DNA from: a virus
Taxonomy: Duplodnaviria > Heunggongvirae > Uroviricota > Caudoviricetes
Reading direction: 5' to 3' (one strand)
Virus record (IMG/VR): IMGVR_UViG_2579778842_000017
Span: 5,703-69,702 of that record
Length of the DNA stretch: 64,000 bases
The notes under the pieces are model-generated. The model worked only from the letters and a program-made list of their open reading frames with translations. It was not told the DNA's origin and made no database searches. Within the stretch, counting starts at the first letter, position 1. Each line of letters opens with the position of its first letter. Position numbers and translations under genes: made by a program. This document shows positions 2,188-58,649 of this stretch, one piece after another.

Positions 2188-4053
2188 TCACTGCTGTGTT
2201 GCCTCAGTGGCAAGCAGCGGTCTGATGGCATTTGCAGCGTTACTTAATGCTCTTTCATAGGCTGGCGTTCCTGCTTTGGTGTTTGCCAGACGTAAGAGCG
2301 CATTCCTGGCCATAGGGCTTTCATAAACCCTCGACATAAGGCCAATCCCTGTTTCCCCAGCCAATAGCGCGCCTCCGGTTTTTAGGTTACCAATAACCCT
2401 TACCAAAGGCGCGAGTGTCATGCCAGTCTTCGTCACAACATTAGCCTCAGATGCTCTTTTGGTAGCATCGAGAATAGATAACATCCCCTCTATCTCTTTT
2501 CCGTTCTTCCCACCAAATACAGTTTTAAACACCTGACCATTTGCTTGTTTTTGCAGCTTGCCAAGCTCGGTCATCATTTTCTGAGGGCTGTCACCTACCT
2601 TGTCAGCTATTTTGCTGATATATGCCGCCCTTAGCATGTCTTTACCTTTTTGATCGAGTTTCCCGTACAATCGAGCTATATCTGACCCATATTGTCCATA
2701 CACAATGGTATTTACAGCCTCGGGAGTTAAATCTCCTTTGTTTAGAACGTTTTTAAGGCGCGTTTGAGTTGCATGTGTTGCCATTTTTGCATAATCAGCT
2801 TTTCCCGCTCTCCATGCTGAAGCATCTTTTGGGCTAAGTCCTTTCGCTATAGATTTACTAAGGCTATTGGTTAGCGAGTTATAGACCCTGTCGACCATTG
2901 TTTGCGACATTGATGGCAGAACTGTACGATCGCCTTTTACGTCAATGCGGAACTGAGTTCTCAGCTTATCAAGTAACTCAAAGGCATCATCTCCATTTGT
3001 TATCTCCTGAATGGCATTCTTATAATCATTAAGCGCAGAAATGGTCTGGGTGTCAGAAACACCTTTAAGTTTCCCAAGTTCGTTTACTGCTCCGTCGATA
3101 GCTCTTATGGCGCCACTTGTATCAACTGGCTTTCCAACCATTCTTCCTGACAGGCTGTTTAGTTTTGACTTGGCTAACGATTTTTCCCTTGCAACGCCTG
3201 ACTTTAGACTATCAACGACTACAGATGGATCGTAGTCGCCGTATTTTTCGGTGAAGCGATTAACAAGCTTGGTTCTGGCATCCTGCTGTGCGGCTCTCAT
3301 TGGTCCAGTACCAGCTATGACTCCTTCTGAGTAACCCTGCAGTTGATTGCCAAGTTTTGTTTTTGGAGGAACTACATCCGATGTCATAACTGGTACATCT
3401 GCCGCAGCGGCACGCTTGAGCAATTGCTGATCTGCTGGTGATATTTCGCCACGAACAGCAGTAATTCCACGCCCTATTCCCTTTGCTGCTGCGGAAAGAA
3501 CCCCCTGAGCGGCAAGGTTAACTCCTGCATTTTTAGCTGCATTTTGTGCGAAATCGCCTTTCTGATTTGCGGCCTCTGCCAGTGATCCAATAGCCATGCT
3601 TCCTGCCGTTCCAACTCCTGGAACTAAATACCCGCCAATTGTTTCTCCAGCTTGCGCATAAGGGTCTGTTGGTCGATCTACTGGACGATAGACATCGTCC
3701 AAAACCTTGGGGCCACCAAGCCCCTGGCTGATTGCATTAATCAGGCTTGCGCCACCCTGCAATACGTCAAATGGTATGTTTACCAGACCACGACCAGCCT
3801 GCTCTGCAATTTGCCCTGCACTTTGACCACCAGTGAGCCAATCGCCAGCTTGTTGCATCAATGATGGTTCTTCTTTCTGCTGCTGAGGCGGAGGGTATGC
3901 TGCATAAAACTGATCTCTTGCTTCAGCCCATTTGTCACCAGCCTTAGGGGCAACAACCTCATCAAAATATTGCGCTTGAGCCTGTGCTTTCTGTTCTTCA
4001 GTTAACGCCTGATACTGTGGAGAGGCGATAACATCTTTCCATGCTTTAGCCAT
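2188..4053 (-). CDS. ejection (injection) protein, P22 gp16-like
   Basis: 621 aa, last gene of a P22-order late operon (3-2-1-8-5-4-10-26-14-7-20-16); size matches gp16 (~609 aa). Confidence 0.6.
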   Translation of the reverse strand: MAKAWKDVIASPQYQALTEEQKAQAQAQYFDEVVAPKAGDKWAEARDQFYAAYPPPQQQKEEPSLMQQAGDWLTGGQSAGQIAEQAGRGLVNIPFDVLQGGASLINAISQGLGGPKVLDDVYRPVDRPTDPYAQAGETIGGYLVPGVGTAGSMAIGSLAEAANQKGDFAQNAAKNAGVNLAAQGVLSAAAKGIGRGITAVRGEISPADQQLLKRAAAADVPVMTSDVVPPKTKLGNQLQGYSEGVIAGTGPMRAAQQDARTKLVNRFTEKYGDYDPSVVVDSLKSGVAREKSLAKSKLNSLSGRMVGKPVDTSGAIRAIDGAVNELGKLKGVSDTQTISALNDYKNAIQEITNGDDAFELLDKLRTQFRIDVKGDRTVLPSMSQTMVDRVYNSLTNSLSKSIAKGLSPKDASAWRAGKADYAKMATHATQTRLKNVLNKGDLTPEAVNTIVYGQYGSDIARLYGKLDQKGKDMLRAAYISKIADKVGDSPQKMMTELGKLQKQANGQVFKTVFGGKNGKEIEGMLSILDATKRASEANVVTKTGMTLAPLVRVIGNLKTGGALLAGETGIGLMSRVYESPMARNALLRLANTKAGTPAYERALSNAANAIRPLLATEATQQ

Positions 4054-36060: not shown

Positions 36061-36391
36061 ATCAGCAGCAGAGCGCAAAGCCGCTCAGAGAGCCAGACAA
36101 GCTGCATCTGGTGTGCGTAAGCTGGAGATTGTGCTTGATGCTCAGGAAATTGAAATGCTGGAGCGTAACTGTGCCACGCGTCGCCCCGGGCGTGCGCCTT
36201 ACGAATTTGGTGAGTATATAGCGTTACTGATCCGCCAGGATGATGCACGCGTGCACGGGCGTATAAAATCGATCAGCAGAAAACGTTGCGGTAAGTGCGG
36301 CGAGAGAGTTCCTGTGAATTCATGCCCGTGTAATGGTGACTCGCAATGCTGGGTGACTAAAGGCTGGCATGAAACGAAATTAATAGTGTGA
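36053..36391 (+). CDS. hypothetical protein (Cys-rich C-terminus)
   Basis: 112 aa; the stop codon lies inside the GTGACATGTCAC palindrome. Confidence 0.45.
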   Translation: MAKSAAERKAAQRARQAASGVRKLEIVLDAQEIEMLERNCATRRPGRAPYEFGEYIALLIRQDDARVHGRIKSISRKRCGKCGERVPVNSCPCNGDSQCWVTKGWHETKLIV

Positions 36392-36399
36392 CATGTCAC
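36388..36399. promoter_or_regulatory. perfect 12-bp palindrome GTGACATGTCAC (copy 1)
   Basis: Exact palindrome; identical copy at 56151..56162. Confidence 0.35.
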
Positions 36400-38578: not shown

Positions 38579-38668
38579 TCCGCTTGAGGGGATAATGTCG
38601 TTGATATCCTCTGATGAGGATAAAACAAAGCCAGCTCATAGGCTGGCTGTTTGTGATATGTCACGGTG

Positions 38669-53249: not shown

Positions 53250-55724
53250 ATGAGACAGGAATGTATACAAGCGGTCCAGCAGGCGGCGCAGCGCACGTTA
53301 ACGGCGCGAGAAATACAGAACATTGAAGACCGCATTTATCGAAATATGCGCTCCATTGCTCGTGATGACCCGATGTCGTGGAGACAACTTTCCGAATCAG
53401 AGCGGCTATATCGTGCAGCACAATTGGCATCTGAAGAATTACAGCGAGAAGCGGCATTAAAGAAACGTCGTGTGGCCCTCACTATAGCCGCACGTCAGAG
53501 ATTGGATAAATTTATCAATAGCTATCAAGGGGCTGATGGGAAACTTGGCGCTCTTAACCGTACTATTGCTTTTAATGCAGACGGTAAATCGAATTTCCTC
53601 TCTGTTGAATCCAGAACAAAAGCCACCCGTGATTATGCATTGAGTCAATTGCAGGAGGCATTCGAAGCAGTTGATCCTCGCTTTTTTGGTCTGTTTGAAG
53701 ATGAAGCGGGCGTACGTGACCTGGTATATGAAATGCGGGGGCAAAATACTGGCAATGCTAAAGCAAGAAAAGGTGCTAAGGCGTGGAGAGAAGTGACAGA
53801 GCTACTGCGCCGCCGGTTTAATGATGCTGGTGGGGACATTGGCTATCTCGAAAACTGGGGGATCCCTCAACATCATTCTATGGAAAAGGTTGGGGCGGTA
53901 TCAAAGGATAAGTGGGTTAGCGATGTTATAGGTAAGCTGGATCGCAAATATTATATCCGAGCCGATGGACAACTGATGAACGATGCCGAGTTGTCTGCAT
54001 TTCTTGGAGAGGCTTATAACACGATCGCTACTGGTGGGCTGAATAAGCTTACTGATACCGGAATGCGAATTTCCGGCGCACGTGCTAACCGTGGTAATGC
54101 ATCACGACAGATACATTTCAAAGATGCAGATTCCTATCTGCAATATCAGCAACTTTATGGCGATCGCTCTCTATGGGAAATCATGGTCGGTCACCTGGAA
54201 GGTATCAGTAAAGATATTGCACTGGTGGAAACATATGGTCCAAACCCCGATCATGTTTTCCGCTCCCTTCTTGATCAGGTTAAGGCAGAAACGGCAACAG
54301 CTAACCCGAGTAAAACCGGTAAAGTCGAGCGGCTGGCGAACAAAACAGAGAACCTGTACAACTTTATTTCCGGAAAGACACAGCCTGTAGCGAATCCGCA
54401 CATCGCGCGATGGTCTGACAATATCCGCAACTGGCTGGTTGCCAGCAGACTCGGATCCGCGTTGCTGTCATCGTTCTCTGATCTTGGAACCATGTATCTG
54501 TCTGCGAAGGTTACCAACCTTCCAATGAACCAGTTATTCCGCAACCAGCTTGAAGCTATGGACCCAACGAACCGTACAGAACTTGCGCGGGCGCGCCGCG
54601 CTGGTCTGGCGATGGAATCTCTACTTGGCAGCGTTAACCGCTGGGCGATGGATAATATGGGGCCGTCAGTGTCTCGTTGGGCGGCAACGGCGGTAATGCG
54701 TGCCAGTGGGCTTACAGCATGGTCAGATGCGCACAAGCGCGCCTATGGCGTAACCATGATGGGAAGCCTGGGAGAAGTAGTGTCACGGACACCAGACCTT
54801 CGTAGCCTCGATGACTATGATTTTCGTATCCTGAAAAGCAAAGGGATTACTGACACAGACTGGAGCGTATGGAAGCTGGCGCAACAGGAGGACTGGGGGA
54901 ACGGTAATAATACGATGCTGACACCGGAAAGCATTATGCGTATCCCTGATTCAGCAGTTAAACATCTTGGTGAGCCTGAACGTGTGAAATTTGAGGCAAT
55001 GCGTAAACTGCTCGGTGCCGTAACTGAAGAAGTTGATATGGCTGTTATTACACCGGGCGCACGTGAACGGATGTTCGTAGGGTCTGGTCTTCAGCGTGGA
55101 ACATGGAAAGGTGAATTAACGAGAAGTGTTTTCCTGTTTAAATCGTTCCCTATCTCGGTAGTTATGCGTCACTGGCATAGAGCTATGGGGATGCCGTCTG
55201 CTGGTGGGCGTGCGGCATATATAGCAACGTTTTTAGCAAGCACAACCATGCTTGGTGCTCTTTCCATGCAGATTACTGATCTTATTAATGGGAGAAATCC
55301 AAAAGAAATGACCGGTGACAACATGGTTAAATTCTGGATAAATGCATTTTTAAAAGGTGGTGGGGCAGGGTTGTATGGTGATTTTCTTTTCTCTGACCAC
55401 ACCAGGTACGGGAGCGGCGCACTAGCGTCGATGCTTGGCCCGGTAGCTGGTCTGGTTGATGACGTAGTGAAGATTGCTCAGGGCATACCGTTAAATGCTG
55501 TGGAAGGGAAGAATGAGCAGACTGGTGGTGATCTGGTTAAGCTTGGGAAAGGTTTGATGCCTGGTGCGAATCTCTGGTACTTGAAGGCGGCTCTCGATCA
55601 CATGATCTTTAATCAGATGCAGGAGTATTTTTCACCAGGCTATTTGCGTAAAATGGAGCAACGTTCGAAGAAAGAGTTTAACCAGACATACTGGTGGCGA
55701 CCTCAGGATGTCACTCCGCAATAA
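53250..55724 (+). CDS. internal core protein (gp16-like, part 2)
   Basis: 824 aa, synteny only. Confidence 0.5.
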   Translation: MRQECIQAVQQAAQRTLTAREIQNIEDRIYRNMRSIARDDPMSWRQLSESERLYRAAQLASEELQREAALKKRRVALTIAARQRLDKFINSYQGADGKLGALNRTIAFNADGKSNFLSVESRTKATRDYALSQLQEAFEAVDPRFFGLFEDEAGVRDLVYEMRGQNTGNAKARKGAKAWREVTELLRRRFNDAGGDIGYLENWGIPQHHSMEKVGAVSKDKWVSDVIGKLDRKYYIRADGQLMNDAELSAFLGEAYNTIATGGLNKLTDTGMRISGARANRGNASRQIHFKDADSYLQYQQLYGDRSLWEIMVGHLEGISKDIALVETYGPNPDHVFRSLLDQVKAETATANPSKTGKVERLANKTENLYNFISGKTQPVANPHIARWSDNIRNWLVASRLGSALLSSFSDLGTMYLSAKVTNLPMNQLFRNQLEAMDPTNRTELARARRAGLAMESLLGSVNRWAMDNMGPSVSRWAATAVMRASGLTAWSDAHKRAYGVTMMGSLGEVVSRTPDLRSLDDYDFRILKSKGITDTDWSVWKLAQQEDWGNGNNTMLTPESIMRIPDSAVKHLGEPERVKFEAMRKLLGAVTEEVDMAVITPGARERMFVGSGLQRGTWKGELTRSVFLFKSFPISVVMRHWHRAMGMPSAGGRAAYIATFLASTTMLGALSMQITDLINGRNPKEMTGDNMVKFWINAFLKGGGAGLYGDFLFSDHTRYGSGALASMLGPVAGLVDDVVKIAQGIPLNAVEGKNEQTGGDLVKLGKGLMPGANLWYLKAALDHMIFNQMQEYFSPGYLRKMEQRSKKEFNQTYWWRPQDVTPQ

Positions 55725-55733
55725 GGAACAACA

Positions 55734-56147
55734 ATGAAGGAATTATTGCTGTTATCGGTATTTTTGATATCCGCTTGCTCGACATCCTATGATGTTTATG
55801 ACGGTGTTGATAAGGCATATTGCGACAAAGTTAAAATGGATTTTTCTCTTGCCAAGACGGCGAAGGATAGTTGTATTGATCACTACGTCAAGACTTATAC
55901 CAAGCCAGCCTCATCGGCATCTGATATTGCTGAAGGTGCTGTGTTTGAGTGTAACAAGGTGATATCCATCGCAGCGAGTTCTTCATACGATGCTGCTGTA
56001 TGTGCAATGGCTGAAAGAAACGGCATGTCAGTGCAAAAAATTAATAGCATGATAAGCAGTAATGACGAAGCCAAAATAAGAACTGATATCAGCTCGGTGA
56101 AAAAAGATGCCATGAACAGAGTTGTAAAATATCAGTCATCTTTATAA
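55734..56147 (+). CDS. lipoprotein (possible superinfection-exclusion moron)
   Basis: 137 aa; signal peptide with lipobox LISAC; last gene of the plus-strand structural block. Confidence 0.55.
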   Translation: MKELLLLSVFLISACSTSYDVYDGVDKAYCDKVKMDFSLAKTAKDSCIDHYVKTYTKPASSASDIAEGAVFECNKVISIAASSSYDAAVCAMAERNGMSVQKINSMISSNDEAKIRTDISSVKKDAMNRVVKYQSSL

Positions 56148-56150
56148 GTC

Positions 56151-56162
56151 GTGACATGTCAC
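56151..56162. promoter_or_regulatory. perfect 12-bp palindrome GTGACATGTCAC (copy 2)
   Basis: Starts 4 nt after the lipoprotein stop, directly followed by a terminator hairpin. Confidence 0.35.
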
Positions 56163-56186
56163 AGGCCGCTTTCGCGGCCTTGTTTT
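56163..56186. terminator. terminator between lipoprotein gene and convergent peptide gene
   Basis: GGCCGC-TTTC-GCGGCC hairpin followed by TTGTTTTT on the plus strand. Confidence 0.55.
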
Positions 56187-56347
56187 TAACGAATGCCACC
56201 GCCACCCGGGCGGGAATCCGCAGAACGCCCACCGCAGCGGGAGCCGTCAGCAGCAGTGTCGCTGTCGTGCTGACAACGACCGGCAAAGGCCTGAGTTGAA
56301 GCTACCAGAGACAACAAAACGAACAGTGCAGCAAATGCTTTTTTCAT
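56186..56347 (-). CDS. small secreted Cys-containing peptide
   Basis: 53 aa from internal Met of track ORF 56186..56566; signal peptide MKKAFAALFVLLSLVASTQAFA; 31-aa mature part with 2 Cys and Gly-rich tail. Confidence 0.4.
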   Translation of the reverse strand: MKKAFAALFVLLSLVASTQAFAGRCQHDSDTAADGSRCGGRSADSRPGGGGIR

Positions 56348-56420
56348 TGTGAAATTTCCATCTATAAGCCACCTCAATGTGGCGTCAATGAGTGTTAGCA
56401 CTGACTTTTGTTTCGTCCAC

Positions 56421-56440
56421 AAAAAATCCCGCAGCGCGGG
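56421..56440 (-). terminator. intrinsic terminator after the two-gene cassette
   Basis: Minus strand: CCCGCGCTGCGGG hairpin followed by TTTTTTGT, right after the stop at 56442. Confidence 0.5.
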
Positions 56441-56441
56441 C

Positions 56442-56882
56442 TTATTCTTCTTCATCATTAAAAAGCGGATTGTTATTTCCATCTGATGAAAGGAAAGGTA
56501 TGTGTTCTCTTGAAAATCCAACAATGACAATTTCATTATCATTTTTTGCATAATGAATGCATTCATTAGAATGCATTCCGCCAGGGTTGAAATTTAAGTT
56601 AATGGTATAATTCTTAAATGTGTTTGGATACCATGTTGGCCCACAATGATAATGCCAATAATTCTCTTGCTCATAATTGTCTGAGCCGGGAATTTTATCA
56701 TGGTTATCATCAACCCACGAGGGCTTGTTTTTTCCAACAAGCGCCCTTCCATTGGCAACATCCTCTAAAAAACTTTGTATGATTTTTATTTCATCATCAG
56801 TAAGGAAAGGTCCGTCTACAGCGAAAGGGGTGTTGCTTTCCCCATGTAGAAAACTATTAGATATTCTAATGTTAAACTTCAA
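56442..56882 (-). CDS. hypothetical protein, AT-rich cassette gene 2
   Basis: About 146 aa from a TTG 6 nt after an AGGAG site (track ORF extends to 57023 in overlap with gene 1); no in-frame ATG near the 5' end. Confidence 0.4.
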   Translation of the reverse strand: MKFNIRISNSFLHGESNTPFAVDGPFLTDDEIKIIQSFLEDVANGRALVGKNKPSWVDDNHDKIPGSDNYEQENYWHYHCGPTWYPNTFKNYTINLNFNPGGMHSNECIHYAKNDNEIVIVGFSREHIPFLSSDGNNNPLFNDEEE

Positions 56883-56902
56883 GGAAAACTCCTGATGTGC
56901 TT

Positions 56903-57070
56903 CTATTTGGAGCGAAATGCCGCCTTGAAGTCGCTGAAAGATGTTCCTGTCTGGTAAACCATATCCTTGTCGCGCTCTTTGCTTGCGCGGCCAAGCATAA
57001 CTTTTCCAATGACATCCCAGCATTGCTTGGCTTGTTCATTGTGCTGAGTACGATTTTTCAACGCTGTCAT
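56903..57070 (-). CDS. 55-aa basic protein, candidate regulator, cassette gene 1
   Basis: ORF below the track cutoff, translated by hand (MTALKNRTQHNEQAKQCWDVIGKVMLGRASKERDKDMVYQTGTSFSDFKAAFRSK); AAGGAGG ribosome-binding site; operator-like site at its promoter. Confidence 0.4.
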   Translation of the reverse strand: MTALKNRTQHNEQAKQCWDVIGKVMLGRASKERDKDMVYQTGTSFSDFKAAFRSK

Positions 57071-57082
57071 ATCGCGCCTCCT

Positions 57083-57097
57083 TTACCTTTAAGGTAA
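57083..57097. promoter_or_regulatory. operator-like palindrome TTACC-TTTAA-GGTAA (site 3 of 5) at a promoter
   Basis: Minus strand reads TTGCAG-17 nt-TACTAT then TTACCTTTAAGGTAA and AAGGAGG before the 55-aa ORF. Confidence 0.5.
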
Positions 57098-57170
57098 TAG
57101 TACGCTATTCACCCACAGTCTGCAATCTGTACAGAATTATTTAAAGGCACATCCCTGTGCCGCCGTTCTG

Positions 57171-57881
57171 TCAGAAGAACCCTGCCTTGTCGTTGATGTA
57201 CTCCGCGTGCGTCTGGATATCACGCAGGCATTTGCTCACACCGACGATGTAGCAGAACATGGTGGTCAGCTCCGCCGCCGCGCCAGATACGTCGTGCCCG
57301 TCGTCCTGCAACTGGTTCAGCAGATTCATCAGCAGTGAGTTCTCCGTCAGGCCGAGAACACCAGACGGCGAGTGAATCAGGCTGCGGTAGCCGGGCTTCA
57401 GTGGGGCACTGTAGGTTTTGTTCTCTATCTTCATTGCCTGTATTACTGCTGACGCCGTGGCGTTGGCTACCTGGTCGGCAACCATCTTTATGCGTTCTTC
57501 CTGCGGGAGCGAGTCTTTAATGTAACTTCCGGTGCGGCGGATCTGAGGAAGAACCTCACCTGTAACCCATTTACGAAAGCGGTAGGGGATAGTGCCTGGT
57601 GTCACCGCATCGCGGCAGCGGAGGATCAGTGTGTAGAGGCCTGACTCGGAGATGATGTTGAGCTCTTTTACTCGGCTATCAAAAATTGCACGATGTTCAT
57701 GCCCTATGTTGAACATAGACCTTTCATCATCATCCAGTTTTTCAAGTGATTGGGTGACGTTTTGGATACGCAGCGCACTACAAACGTCTTGGGCTACAAA
57801 CCATGGTTGGCCATCGATAATGATGGAACGGATAGGGTTAACAGATTCAAATTTGAAGATGGCAGTTTGAGCATTAGCCAT
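57171..57881 (-). CDS. Bro-N domain antirepressor-like protein
   Basis: Start refined to MANAQTAIFKF...; N-terminal IIIDGQPWFVAQDVCSALRI is a Bro-N signature; C-terminal domain paralogous to the 85-aa protein upstream. Confidence 0.65.
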   Translation of the reverse strand: MANAQTAIFKFESVNPIRSIIIDGQPWFVAQDVCSALRIQNVTQSLEKLDDDERSMFNIGHEHRAIFDSRVKELNIISESGLYTLILRCRDAVTPGTIPYRFRKWVTGEVLPQIRRTGSYIKDSLPQEERIKMVADQVANATASAVIQAMKIENKTYSAPLKPGYRSLIHSPSGVLGLTENSLLMNLLNQLQDDGHDVSGAAAELTTMFCYIVGVSKCLRDIQTHAEYINDKAGFF

Positions 57882-58036
57882 GGTGGTTATCTCCACTTAG
57901 TGATTTTAATCACCACCGCAACGCCAATTACTGGTGGTGAACTGGACAAGGTTGGCGTACCGGCCTAAGTGGTACCGGCGTCCTTTCGGACCCCTGCCCA
58001 GCCCACCATAATTCGGATATGGCTGTGCTTAACGCA

Positions 58037-58059
58037 TAAAAAAACCACGTCTGGCGTGG
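58037..58059 (-). terminator. terminator-like hairpin with U-run
   Basis: Minus strand: CCACGCCAGACGTGG followed by TTTTTTT. Confidence 0.4.
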
Positions 58060-58150
58060 TATGCGCCACTTAGTAACTCGGGACGCCAATCCCGGCACTG
58101 GATTTTTCCAGTGCCCGATTACTATGGCACAAGAGGAGTGCGATGTAAAT

Positions 58151-58165
58151 TTACCGCAAAGGTAA
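58151..58165. promoter_or_regulatory. operator-like palindrome TTACC-GCAAA-GGTAA (site 4 of 5)
   Basis: Nested inside inverted repeat GGAGTGC...GCACTCC (58135..58178); minus-strand context TTGCAA-18 nt-TATATT then TTACC. Confidence 0.4.
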
Positions 58166-58196
58166 ATATAAGCACTCCACTTGGTAATTGCAAACC

Positions 58197-58454
58197 TTAT
58201 CTGGTTTGTTTTCGTAATTGTTCGGCACAATAGTCGAGATGTGTTTGCAGATCCCGCATAGACATCTGTGAGCTGGTGACGTAGTTAATCAGTGCAGTCA
58301 GTTCGGCAAGTGGGCCATCGACATTAAATCCATCCTTATCGAGCTCCCGGAGTAATTTCATCAAGTGCGATCCCTCCACCAGTGATCTAACGCCTCCCGG
58401 CGTGTGAATCCTTTCGGTAAATCCGTCTTCCAGTGGATAGTGATACTGCTGCAT
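58197..58454 (-). CDS. small antirepressor-like protein (paralog of the Bro-N protein C-terminus)
   Basis: 85 aa from ATG after GGAGAA site (track ORF 58197..58472 starts at TTG); about 45% identity by eye to residues about 150-236 of the Bro-N protein. Confidence 0.5.
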   Translation of the reverse strand: MQQYHYPLEDGFTERIHTPGGVRSLVEGSHLMKLLRELDKDGFNVDGPLAELTALINYVTSSQMSMRDLQTHLDYCAEQLRKQTR

Positions 58455-58475
58455 CTTATCTTCTCCATGCAATAA

Positions 58476-58491
58476 CTGTATAAATATACAG
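58476..58491. promoter_or_regulatory. LexA (SOS) box
   Basis: CTGTATAAATATACAG, a near-consensus CTGT-N8-ACAG palindrome about 22 nt upstream of the 85-aa gene start. Confidence 0.7.
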
Positions 58492-58530
58492 TATCAAATA
58501 ATTTATTTGCTATCCAGCACGTTTTGCGAA

Positions 58531-58545
58531 TCACCTGAAAGGTAA
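58531..58545. promoter_or_regulatory. operator-like palindrome TCACC-TGAAA-GGTAA (site 5 of 5, one mismatch)
   Basis: About 105 nt upstream of the tail fibre gene; flanks resemble site 2. Confidence 0.35.
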
Positions 58546-58649
58546 TATCTGTTCGTATTTATGGGTTGTCTATCCATATATGGTTTTTCAGGTAATAGAA
58601 TAACCGGATATGCGGCGCAACGGGTGCTGCGACTATCTGGAGATTTAAC

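What the first reader, a model, noticed from the sequence alone, without database searches (positions are those of the whole stretch)
55734..56347. Lipoprotein and a convergent small secreted Cys peptide at the end of the structural operon
A 137-aa lipoprotein (lipobox LISAC) follows the last internal core gene, and a 53-aa ORF with a clean signal peptide and a 31-aa mature part (2 Cys, Gly-rich tail) is encoded convergently with its own terminator. Lipoproteins at this position often block the phage's own receptor; the peptide has no obvious role.
Basis: partly seen in the sequence, partly recalled or inferred. Interest (0 to 1): 0.5.

Follow-up and report, generated by a model that had tools for sequence, protein, structure and literature searches.

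The report
Two independent prophage envelope cargo genes
Both small genes are real and under strong selection, but they are two unrelated accessory genes of an epsilon15-like prophage: a rare outer-membrane lipoprotein that most likely blocks entry of related phages, and a very widespread, uncharacterised secreted 31-residue peptide.

Summary
ORF 55734-56147 (+) encodes a 137-aa lipoprotein and ORF 56186-56347 (-) a 53-aa Sec-signal pre-peptide. Both are under strong purifying selection.

The window is a Uetakevirus (epsilon15/phiV10-like) prophage. The genes lie between the ejection-protein operon and a C4-RNA/Bro-N antirepressor module upstream of the tailspike.

The two genes are not a pair. 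They assort independently: 22 versus 445 of 5426 complete E. coli genomes.

- **Lipoprotein.** It fills an exchangeable slot, 55729-56149. In relatives this slot holds small membrane proteins, another lipoprotein family or a secreted protein. It stays behind the gp17-like gene down to 26% identity. A 29%-identical relative sits in defence islands. The model is a confident all-helical domain with four invariant Cys and no fold match.
- **Peptide.** It belongs to a family of more than 1300 members with an almost invariant C-x4-D-x-A-x-DGSRCG-x-RS-x-DSRPGG core. In enterobacterial prophages it is a stand-alone cassette with its own conserved upstream region.
- **Hairpin.** The hairpin at 56163-56180 is primarily the late-operon terminator, not the peptide's own.

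Best reading: the lipoprotein is a superinfection-exclusion-type factor and the peptide a periplasmic moron product with an unknown target. Neither function is shown. Both are uncharacterised members of a known kind.

The parts
53250..55724 (+). Context: gp17-like 824-aa virion/ejection protein, the last large gene of the late operon
   Evidence: phrog_684 'virion structural protein', E=0. Syntenic with epsilon15 gp17 and phiV10 p20.
55729..56149 (+). Exchangeable cargo slot: ribosome-binding site plus lipoprotein ORF. Exactly this stretch is replaced in relatives.
   Evidence: Window vs HEMP4: 100% identity up to 55728 and 98% from 56150, unrelated in between. GC is 39.4% against 49-51% in the flanks.
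55734..56147 (+). Lipoprotein gene, 137 aa. Signal peptide is aa 1-14, lipidated Cys15 is at 55776-55778, and the mature part is 123 aa.
   Evidence: phrog_8691 E=1.6e-91. dN/dS about 0.05. Invariant C15, C30, C47, C73, C90. AF2 pLDDT 86.7, all-helical.
56151..56162 (.). Perfect palindrome GTGACATGTCAC between the lipoprotein stop and the terminator; a conserved junction element
   Evidence: Present at this junction in epsilon15, phiV10, HEMP4 and Citrobacter prophages.
56163..56188 (+). Late-operon intrinsic terminator: hairpin AGGCCGC-TTTC-GCGGCCT plus T-run. The T-run overlaps the peptide's stop codon.
   Evidence: Conserved with or without the peptide gene.
56186..56347 (-). Peptide gene, 53 aa. 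Signal peptide codons are 56282-56347, the mature 31-aa part is 56189-56281, and the stop is 56186-56188.
   Evidence: phrog_14503 E=2.3e-40. Purifying selection. Family alignments.
56348..56419 (-). Conserved ~70-nt upstream region of the peptide cassette. It holds a -35-like TGGACG (56419-56414), a -10-like TAACAC(T) (56397-56391), a 5'-UTR hairpin GCCAC-ATTGAG-GTGGC (56383-56368) and a weak SD GGA.
   Evidence: Nearly invariant across 109 loci whatever gene lies upstream. TAnnnT element conserved in position in other genera. Hairpin shows compensatory changes. Promoter activity is inferred, not shown.
56428..56440 (-). Terminator that ends the upstream antirepressor/193-aa ORF unit and separates it from the peptide cassette
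   Evidence: CCCGCGCTGCGGG + ATTTTTTG. Stem varies with compensatory changes among loci.

Best explanation
These are two separate accessory (cargo) cassettes. They sit at the junction between the late virion/ejection-protein operon and the antirepressor module of a Uetakevirus prophage.

(1) Lipoprotein.
- Shown: it is translated from the late operon transcript. There is no promoter-like site upstream, and the RBS lies 9 nt after the gp17-like stop.
- Inferred: its 13-kDa all-helical periplasmic domain is stapled by two disulfides, C30-C90 and C47-C73.
- Most likely role (inferred): superinfection exclusion. It would interfere in the periplasm with the trans-envelope conduit, or with the lytic transglycosylase, formed by the ejection proteins of incoming epsilon15-like phages. 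That would protect the infected or lysogenic cell and stop progeny from being wasted on cell debris.

(2) Peptide.
- Inferred: it is a stand-alone moron transcribed from its own sigma-70-type promoter, including in the lysogen.
- Inferred from sequence: it is exported by Sec and cleaved after AFA. This releases a hydrophilic ~3-kDa periplasmic peptide with one 12-residue disulfide loop and an invariant DGSRCG-x-RS-x-DSRPGG core.
- Inferred: because this core is nearly unchanged from Enterobacterales to Rhizobiales and cyanobacteria, its target should be a universally conserved envelope component or ion, not a phage-specific protein.
- Its effect, whether exclusion or host fitness, is unknown.
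For: Reality and export:
- ORFs and motifs. Purifying selection. Invariant Cys patterns.

Independence of the two genes:
- Co-occurrence patterns in 119 loci.
- 22 vs 445 of 5426 E. coli genomes.
- Lipoprotein without peptide in Citrobacter and Cedecea prophages.
- Peptide with other slot occupants in HEMP4, phiv142-3, BUCT711 and Cronobacter.

The slot:
- Exact replacement boundaries 55729-56149.
- Occupants are the epsilon15 gp18 TM protein, the phiV10 p21 2-TM protein, 57- and 98-aa TM proteins, a second lipoprotein family (phrog_3716) and a signal-peptide protein (phrog_11983).
- Low GC.

Link to ejection proteins:
- The lipoprotein family is retained directly downstream of SLT / gp16-like / gp17-like genes at 55%, 43% and 26% identity, while the tailspikes differ.

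Defence association:
- Relative P0077 lies in AlpA/DUF3987 islands. Its neighbours there are a UvrD-type helicase, a DruE-like helicase, a type I restriction-modification system and PDC-S11.

Structure:
- pLDDT 86.7, six helices.
- Cys positions sum to 120 in both pairs, as expected for an antiparallel helix pair (inference).

Precedent:
- P22 SieA lies between the ejection-protein genes and the tailspike gene. It blocks the gp16/gp20 conduit (PMC10883804).

Peptide cassette:
- Terminator upstream, conserved ~70-nt leader and terminator downstream in every context.
- Found in prophages of different morphotypes in gamma- and alpha-proteobacteria.
- More than 1385 family members; 60 species-level loci across several phyla.
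Against: - The lipoprotein has no promoter-like site of its own. It may therefore be made only late in the lytic cycle and not in lysogens, which fits classical prophage exclusion less well.
- The defence-island relative is only 29% identical, so guilt by association is weak.
- The peptide's mature part models poorly, with pLDDT 50-67.
- No conserved partner gene exists.
- Outside Enterobacterales some copies are in ordinary chromosomal contexts. A phage-directed role is therefore not implied by the family as a whole.
- In this window the -10-like element carries a 1-nt insertion, seen in 3 of 109 loci. This may weaken expression.
Confidence: 0.45

Rival explanations
1. Receptor masking. The lipoprotein would bind an outer-membrane protein from the periplasmic side, one that epsilon15-like phages use as secondary receptor, and inactivate it as T5 Llp does with FhuA or Cor does in phi80/N15.
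For: It is an OM-sorted lipoprotein of a size comparable to such factors and is encoded a few kb from the tailspike gene. Late co-expression with virion genes would suit protection of progeny from debris, the role discussed for T5 Llp (PMC12373910). A secondary receptor for this phage group is not known, so the idea cannot be excluded.
Confidence: 0.15
2. The lipoprotein is not anti-phage. It would be a lysogenic-conversion or host-fitness factor such as Bor/Iss-type serum resistance, or a late accessory of envelope disruption or virion release.
For: Low-GC cargo in a moron hot-spot. Prophage lipoproteins such as lambda Bor have host-directed roles (established knowledge). Its position in the late operon could indicate a lytic-cycle function.
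Against: No similarity to Bor/Iss or spanins. A complete lysis cassette with Rz/Rz1 lies elsewhere in this phage group. The long-term synteny with ejection-protein genes and the defence-island relative are not explained.
Confidence: 0.2
3. The lipoprotein and the peptide form one functional unit, for example a two-part exclusion system or a toxin/immunity pair, as the finding's title implies.
For: They are adjacent and convergent, share a hairpin, and both are exported.
Against: They assort independently. Lipoprotein without peptide occurs in about 18 loci and peptide without lipoprotein in more than 60 loci. Genome prevalence is 22 vs 445 of 5426. The peptide also occurs in unrelated phage types and in alpha-proteobacteria.
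Confidence: 0.03
4. The peptide is a secreted pro-peptide of a phage communication system (arbitrium-like), or a released antibacterial peptide.
For: It is a small Sec-exported phage-encoded peptide with a conserved C-terminal ...SRPGG stretch. It would be released on lysis.
Against: No receptor or regulator gene is linked in any context. The whole 26-aa core, not a short C-terminal piece, is conserved. A 3-kDa peptide is not expected to cross the outer membrane. Some family members are lipoprotein-anchored or chromosomal.
Confidence: 0.04

Closest known systems
P22 SieA (superinfection exclusion protein of P22-like podophages)
   Same: Same genome position logic: it is encoded between the ejection-protein genes and the tailspike gene (PMC10883804). 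From my own knowledge, the P22 antirepressor (immI) module lies in that same interval. SieA is an envelope protein that acts on the incoming ejection-protein conduit. Several unrelated sequence types fill the same role.
   Different: SieA is a polytopic inner-membrane protein expressed from the prophage. The protein here is a lipoprotein with a soluble helical domain, shows no sequence similarity, and apparently lies in the late operon without its own promoter.
T5 Llp and Cor (phi80/N15/HK022) receptor-blocking lipoproteins
   Same: Small phage-encoded OM lipoproteins that prevent superinfection and loss of progeny on debris.
   Different: No sequence or fold similarity. Those proteins target FhuA, the protein receptor of their own phage. 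Phages of this group use O-antigen via a tailspike, and the gene tracks the ejection proteins rather than the tailspike.
Ltp of Streptococcus thermophilus phage TP-J34
   Same: A phage lipoprotein involved in superinfection exclusion (PMC3952083, abstract seen). From my own knowledge, it has a helical extracytoplasmic domain and blocks DNA injection by binding the tape measure protein.
T4 Spackle (periplasmic inhibitor of the gp5 tail lysozyme)
   Same: A small, helical, disulfide-bonded periplasmic phage protein. The phage here also delivers a peptidoglycan hydrolase: an SLT domain in the gp15-like protein.
   Different: The Pfam PF25676 match is at noise level, E=0.82 and 10.7 bits against a cut-off of 27, and covers the signal peptide. 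No fold match. Spackle is soluble, not lipidated.
Phage morons (lambda bor/lom, HK97 gp15 type): autonomous promoter-gene-terminator cassettes between phage operons
   Same: The peptide gene has this anatomy: a terminator before it, a conserved leader with promoter-like elements, and a terminator after it. It also has the opposite orientation to its neighbours and occurs in several phage types.
   Different: The product is far smaller and far more conserved than typical morons. The same mini-domain also occurs outside phages.
Excalibur (DxDxDGxxCE) extracellular Ca-binding motif and the disulfide-closed CKPHDC loop of the lysozyme inhibitor Ivy (leads recalled from memory only)
   Same: A secreted, Cys-bracketed, Asp-rich loop (C-Q-H-D-S-D-T-A-A-D-G-S-R-C). 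'D-x-A-x-D-G-x-x-C' resembles the Excalibur signature, and His-Asp in a disulfide loop resembles Ivy.
   Different: Pfam gives no Excalibur or any other hit at E<=1. The third Asp and the final Glu of the Excalibur motif are absent. The loop is 12 residues long rather than Ivy's 4. No test of metal binding or lysozyme inhibition was possible.

Membership tests
Bacterial lipoproteins (Lgt/LspA/Lnt substrates) | N-terminal signal peptide ending in a lipobox [LVI][ASTVI][GAS]C with an invariant Cys | tested here: met
   MKELLLLSVFL-ISAC. Lipobox Cys invariant in 11 homologues down to 26% identity: ISAC, LSGC, IVGC, LFGC.
Bacterial lipoproteins (Lgt/LspA/Lnt substrates) | Actual lipid modification and Lol-dependent OM sorting (no Asp at +2) | not testable with these tools
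   Residue +2 is Ser here and Ser or Thr in all homologues. OM sorting is inferred from the +2 rule. Acylation needs a labelling or globomycin experiment.
PHROG 8691 (unknown function) | Full-length profile match | tested here: met
   E=1.6e-91, residues 1-137 on profile positions 1-137.
T5 Llp / Cor receptor-blocking lipoproteins | Sequence or fold similarity to Llp or Cor | tested here: not met
T5 Llp / Cor receptor-blocking lipoproteins | Binds and inactivates the phage's own OM protein receptor | not testable with these tools
   Needs adsorption and pull-down assays. Indirect evidence is against it: the gene tracks the ejection-protein genes, not tailspike type.
P22 SieA-type exclusion | Encoded between the ejection-protein genes and the tailspike gene (next to the antirepressor module) | tested here: met
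   Gene order in the window is gp17-like, then lipoprotein, then peptide, then the 193-aa ORF. Next come Bro-N ant with C4/isrK RNA, the gp19-like gene and the tailspike. P22 layout from PMC10883804.
P22 SieA-type exclusion | Polytopic inner-membrane protein | tested here: not met
   The only hydrophobic segment is the signal peptide. The mature domain is soluble and helical.
P22 SieA-type exclusion | Blocks DNA delivery after adsorption; escape mutations in ejection proteins | not testable with these tools
   Requires infection assays.
T4 Spackle (PF25676) | Pfam profile match above the gathering score | tested here: not met
   10.7 bits against a cut-off of 27, E=0.82, residues 1-56 including the signal peptide.
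Sec-exported, signal-peptidase-I-cleaved peptide | Positively charged n-region, 10-15-residue hydrophobic core, small residues at -3 and -1 | tested here: met
   MKK / AFAALFVLLSLVAS / TQAFA|G. Ala at -1 and Gly at +1 are at least 90% conserved in 56 sequences, while the hydrophobic core varies freely. Cleavage itself is not shown.
PHROG 14503 / 3117 ('membrane associated protein'; NCBI name 'transmembrane anchored protein') | Full-length profile match | tested here: met
   E=2.3e-40 and 4.1e-36. Source names. The name implies an uncleaved anchor, which the 14-residue h-region and the conserved AxA site argue against.
Moron (autonomous promoter-gene-terminator cassette) | Own promoter and terminator; inserted between phage operons; found in different phage backgrounds | tested here: inconclusive
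   Flanking terminators and different backgrounds are met. The conserved leader has a -35/-10-like pair, but the default scan called no promoter and transcription has not been measured.
Excalibur Ca-binding domain (PF05901) | Pfam match and DxDxDGxxCE signature | tested here: not met
   No Pfam hit at E<=1. The motif here is D-[TR]-A-[AS]-D-G-S-R-C-G, lacking the third Asp and the Glu.
Arbitrium-type communication peptide | Adjacent receptor gene (aimR-like) and a short mature C-terminal peptide | tested here: not met
   No conserved neighbour in 12 examined contexts. The whole 26-aa core is conserved.

The most novel reading that the evidence does not exclude
The 26-31-residue mature peptide is a previously undescribed, self-sufficient secreted mini-domain with the core C-x4-D-x-A-x-DGSRCG-x-RS-x-DSRPGG. 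It is spread across Proteobacteria, cyanobacteria and beyond. Temperate phages would have captured it as a moron because it binds a universally conserved periplasmic target. Candidate targets are peptidoglycan, the lytic-transglycosylase or lysozyme activity that incoming phages need, or a divalent cation. By this route it would exclude competing phages or remodel the envelope of about 8% of E. coli strains.
Probability: 0.12. Interest if true: 0.7.

Novelty: new member of a known kind. Interest (0 to 1): 0.4.

Why it matters
**Lipoprotein.** If it blocks the epsilon15-type ejection conduit, it would be the first exclusion factor described for Uetakeviruses. It would also be only the second for short-tailed phages after P22 SieA, with a new disulfide-stapled helical fold. 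The slot behind the gp17-like gene would then be a ready source of further exclusion proteins: at least six unrelated envelope-targeted occupants were seen here.

**Peptide.** It is the more general lead. It is present in 445 of 5426 complete E. coli genomes and in prophages of distant bacteria. Its core is more conserved than almost any flanking phage protein, yet it has no Pfam family, no literature and a probably misleading database name.

**Practical relevance.** Both genes bear on phage therapy and phage typing of E. coli, Klebsiella and Salmonella lysogens. They are also relevant to the annotation of small proteins.

Tried and rejected
Annotation libraries:
- Pfam, NCBIfam and PADLOC scans of both proteins and their neighbours gave only noise-level hits.
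- These were Linker_histone (E=0.0011, below cut-off), T4_Spackle (E=0.82), CC_3452 (16 bits vs 40) and HxsA3 (13 bits vs 65). All rejected.

Structure:
- The PDB profile search matched only signal peptides and designed helical repeats.
- Foldseek vs BFVD gave a best E of 0.38.
- The afdb50 library was unavailable.
- The AF2 model of the peptide is low-confidence in the mature part, so no fold search was done on it.

Sequence searches:
- tblastn of the lipoprotein against 50,697 phage records found nothing. The gene is known only from prophages and metagenomes.
A PDB search with it found nothing.

Literature:
- Searches for the database name, the peptide motif, WP accessions, PHROG ids and 'Uetakevirus lipoprotein' found no paper.
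- The epsilon15 genome paper was not held.

Rejected readings:
- The two genes as a functional pair, because of their distribution.
- The 126-aa extended ORF, which is not conserved.
- The promoter candidate TTGACG-16-TATAGA around the hairpin. Its -10 lacks the final T, and it is not conserved in other genera, whereas the upstream TAnnnT element is.
- Rfam found no known RNA in the finding's interval. The only nearby match, Trp_leader at 56419-56526, reached E=0.87 and 20 bits against a gathering score of 41, so it was rejected.
Full report
**What is there.** The window region is part of a Uetakevirus (epsilon15/phiV10-like) prophage.
- DNA 55000-58700 is 95% identical to Escherichia phage HEMP4 and 94% to phiv142-3. 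Weaker matches reach phiV10, TL-2011b, Salmonella SPN1S-type phages and epsilon15.
- On the + strand, the 600-aa and 824-aa virion/ejection proteins come first; the latter is phrog_684 and gp17-like. The 137-aa ORF 55734-56147 follows.
- The gap after the gp17-like stop is 9 nt and contains AAGGA. No promoter-like site lies upstream on that strand.
- Convergent to it is the 53-aa ORF 56186-56347.
- Further along the minus strand lie a terminator (56440-56428), a 193-aa ORF of unknown function (phrog_5954) and a Bro-N antirepressor. That antirepressor is preceded by C4 antisense RNA and isrK matches. A gp19-like gene follows, and the tailspike starts at 58650 on the + strand.
- The layout of ejection proteins, small envelope gene, antirepressor module and tailspike mirrors the P22 region that holds sieA (PMC10883804).

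**Both ORFs are genes.**
- The lipoprotein has dN/dS of about 0.05 against homologues with dS 0.24-0.5. Cys15 and four further Cys are invariant in relatives down to 26% identity.
- For the peptide, synonymous sites are saturated between genera while dN in the mature part is 0.05-0.16.
- PGAP annotates both as hypothetical proteins in an E. coli chromosome that is identical over both genes.

**The lipoprotein.**
- Its N-terminus MKELLLLSVFL-ISAC is a canonical lipobox. Residue +2 is Ser, so by the Lol +2 rule it should go to the outer membrane (inference).
- With an 11-sequence alignment, AlphaFold2 gives a confident model with pLDDT 86.7. The model has six helices and no strands.
- C30 and C47 lie in the long first helix. 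C73 and C90 lie at the start of and within the third. Since 30+90 = 47+73 = 120, both pairs fit one antiparallel register. I infer two disulfides that staple these helices, which agrees with a periplasmic location.
- The family is small. There are 17 near-identical proteins in E. coli, Enterobacter and Citrobacter, plus a 55% homologue in Cedecea. An exhaustive search of 1.8 billion representatives added four relatives at 26-44% identity.
- It occurs in 22 of 5426 complete E. coli genomes and in no isolated phage genome.

**The slot.**
- Against HEMP4, identity is 100% up to 55728 and 98% from 56150. The stretch between is unrelated. GC there drops to 39% from about 50%.
- In HEMP4, phiv142-3, Klebsiella phage BUCT711 and a Cronobacter prophage, the slot holds a 98-aa multi-TM protein, often with a 57-aa TM protein.
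- In phiV10 it holds a 46-aa 2-TM protein, and in epsilon15 the 64-aa TM protein gp18.
- In other prophages it holds a different lipoprotein (phrog_3716) or a 186-aa signal-peptide protein (phrog_11983).
- No locus has two of these at once. They behave as alternative alleles of one slot, and most are envelope-targeted; a 152-aa occupant with no export signal is the exception.
- The lipoprotein family itself keeps this position in diverged phages. In Cedecea it follows an 848-aa gp17-like gene. The 43% relative follows a gp17-like C-terminus.
- The 26% relative lies downstream of SLT, 573-aa and 855-aa genes, separated from them by one extra 191-aa gene.
- The tailspikes of these carriers differ: 624, 675, 690, 826 and 1070 aa.
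- The 29% relative P0077 lies in AlpA/DUF3987 integrative islands. Its neighbours there are a UvrD-type helicase, a DruE-like helicase, a type I restriction-modification system and PDC-S11.

**The peptide.**
- The precursor has a typical cleavable signal peptide. Across 56 homologues the hydrophobic core varies freely, while Ala at -1 and Gly at +1 are at least 90% conserved.
- The mature part is almost invariant: G-N/R-C-Q-H-D-x-D-T/R-A-A/S-D-G-S-R-C-G-G-R-S-A/S-D-S-R-P-G-G.
- A profile search finds 1385 proteins at E<=1. One genome per species gives 60 loci in Enterobacterales, Vibrio, Tolumonas, Advenella, many Rhizobiales, Azospirillum, cyanobacteria, Bacteriovorax and a myxobacterium.
- In all of these the motif is at the extreme C-terminus. 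It usually follows a signal peptide or a lipobox plus a short linker.
- Databases call it 'transmembrane anchored protein' or 'membrane associated protein'. The short h-region and the conserved cleavage site argue for a released peptide instead.
- It has no Pfam family and no paper.
- In Enterobacterales, and in the Mesorhizobium and Methylobacterium cases examined, it lies in prophages of several kinds. These include Uetakevirus, a siphovirus-like Pectobacterium prophage and elements with large polyvalent proteins. It is usually a lone gene in its own orientation, near tailspike, ejection-protein or lysis genes.
- Elsewhere some copies are in ordinary chromosomal neighbourhoods, and no neighbour recurs.
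- It is present in 445 of 5426 complete E. coli genomes.

**Anatomy of the peptide cassette.**
- It begins right after the terminator of the upstream unit.
- The next ~70 nt are nearly invariant in 109 loci, whatever gene lies upstream. They contain TGGACG-16-TACACT. In other genera the same position reads TACAAT, TACGCT, TAAAAT or TATACT.
- A short hairpin follows. Its stem changes by compensatory substitutions: GCCAC/GTGGC, GCCGC/GCGGC and others. One pair splits 6 G-C, 5 A-U and 2 G-U.
- The window's copy has a 1-nt insertion in the -10-like element (TAACACT), shared by only 3 of 109 loci.
- Downstream, every context has a GC-rich hairpin within a few nt of the stop, usually with a T-run in the peptide's direction.
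- In this window the T-run is on the other strand. The same palindrome-plus-hairpin junction also closes the late operon in epsilon15, phiV10 and in Citrobacter prophages that have the lipoprotein but no peptide gene.

**They are not a pair.** About 25 loci have lipoprotein with peptide and about 18 have lipoprotein without peptide. More than 60 have the peptide with other occupants (some contigs were fetched twice). The 20-fold difference in prevalence points the same way.

**Most likely mechanism.**
- For the lipoprotein I favour superinfection exclusion acting on the ejection step. It would interfere in the periplasm with the conduit or the lytic transglycosylase delivered by incoming epsilon15-like virions.
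- The support is circumstantial. It rests on slot equivalence with inner-membrane proteins, stable linkage to ejection-protein genes rather than to tailspike type, the P22 SieA precedent for the position, and the defence-island relative.
- Its apparent late-operon expression fits protection of infected cells and of progeny against debris better than classical lysogen immunity.
- Receptor masking of the Llp/Cor type remains possible if these phages use an unknown OM protein as secondary receptor.
- For the peptide I can only say that it is a periplasmic effector made from its own transcription unit. Conservation across phyla points to a universal target.
- The Asp-rich disulfide loop recalls Excalibur-type calcium sites and the inhibitory loop of Ivy. 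These are resemblances from memory, and the one test available (Pfam) was negative.

**Verdict.** The receptor-blocking interpretation is a reasonable analogy without specific support. Both genes are uncharacterised members of a known kind, namely envelope-targeted prophage cargo. Interest is moderate, mainly because of the breadth and conservation of the peptide family and because the slot looks like a reservoir of exclusion-type genes.

Noticed in passing
window 57930-58127 (-), with 57171-57896 (-) and 58197-58472 (-): C4 antisense RNA (RF01695, 66 bits, 58013-57930) and isrK (RF01394, 66 bits, 58114-58038) both pass their gathering scores. A sub-threshold c4 a1/b1 target match also lies there. 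All three sit between the gp19-like gene and the Bro-N antirepressor. The minus-strand unit is therefore a P1/P7 immI-like or Gifsy isrK-type RNA-controlled antirepressor module.
   Followed up: partly
window 56151-56162 and 36388-36399; 1-mismatch copy at 38653-38664; epsilon15 L128 2142, 19517, 39612: The perfect 12-nt palindrome GTGACATGTCAC recurs at the 3' ends of rightward transcription units. In epsilon15 two of three copies overlap a stop codon and sit just before an annotated terminator. It is also the right-hand boundary of the exchangeable slot. Chance expectation in 64 kb is about 0.004. It may be a regulator or termination-related site, or a recombination boundary.
   Followed up: partly
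window 56368-56383 (-) and 56391-56397 (-): A short 5'-UTR hairpin upstream of the peptide start is kept across genera by compensatory changes, followed in most genera by a CTACACA motif. The window's -10-like element carries a 1-nt insertion, seen in 3 of 109 loci, that may weaken the promoter.
   Followed up: partly
window 56442-57023 (-): A 193-aa ORF (PGAP calls a 146-aa version) with phrog_5954 unknown function and no Pfam/NCBIfam/PADLOC hit. GC is 38%, and it is present in only a minority of related loci. It is another cargo gene of the antirepressor unit.
   Followed up: no
L131 6001-6420 and L132 6001-6420: A 139-aa lipoprotein 29% identical to the window's, with the same four-Cys pattern, lies as a lone gene in AlpA/DUF3987/YagK-type integrative islands. 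In one genome its neighbours are a UvrD-type helicase and a DruE-like helicase. In another they are a type I restriction-modification system plus PDC-S11.
   Followed up: partly
L041 and L057 (IMG/VR prophages), slot after the gp17-like gene: The same slot holds other exported proteins in relatives. One is a 126-aa lipoprotein with lipobox LLVGC (phrog_3716). Another is a 186-aa signal-peptide protein (phrog_11983). Both are of unknown function.
   Followed up: partly
L168, L173, L180 (cyanobacteria); L185 (Bacteriovorax): The peptide's core motif also forms the extreme C-terminus of cyanobacterial lipoproteins, as lipobox plus Gly/Ser linker plus motif. It also ends a 278-aa Bacteriovorax lipoprotein. 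This suggests an autonomous mini-domain that can be soluble or membrane-tethered.
   Followed up: partly
L002 (phiV10) 2382-2440 and 3226-3293: phiV10 keeps only remnants of the peptide gene: the last ~23 nt next to the late terminator, plus an annotated 'similar to SF0880' fragment. It also has a 29-aa relic of the antirepressor C-terminus. This shows that the region decays and rearranges quickly.
   Followed up: no
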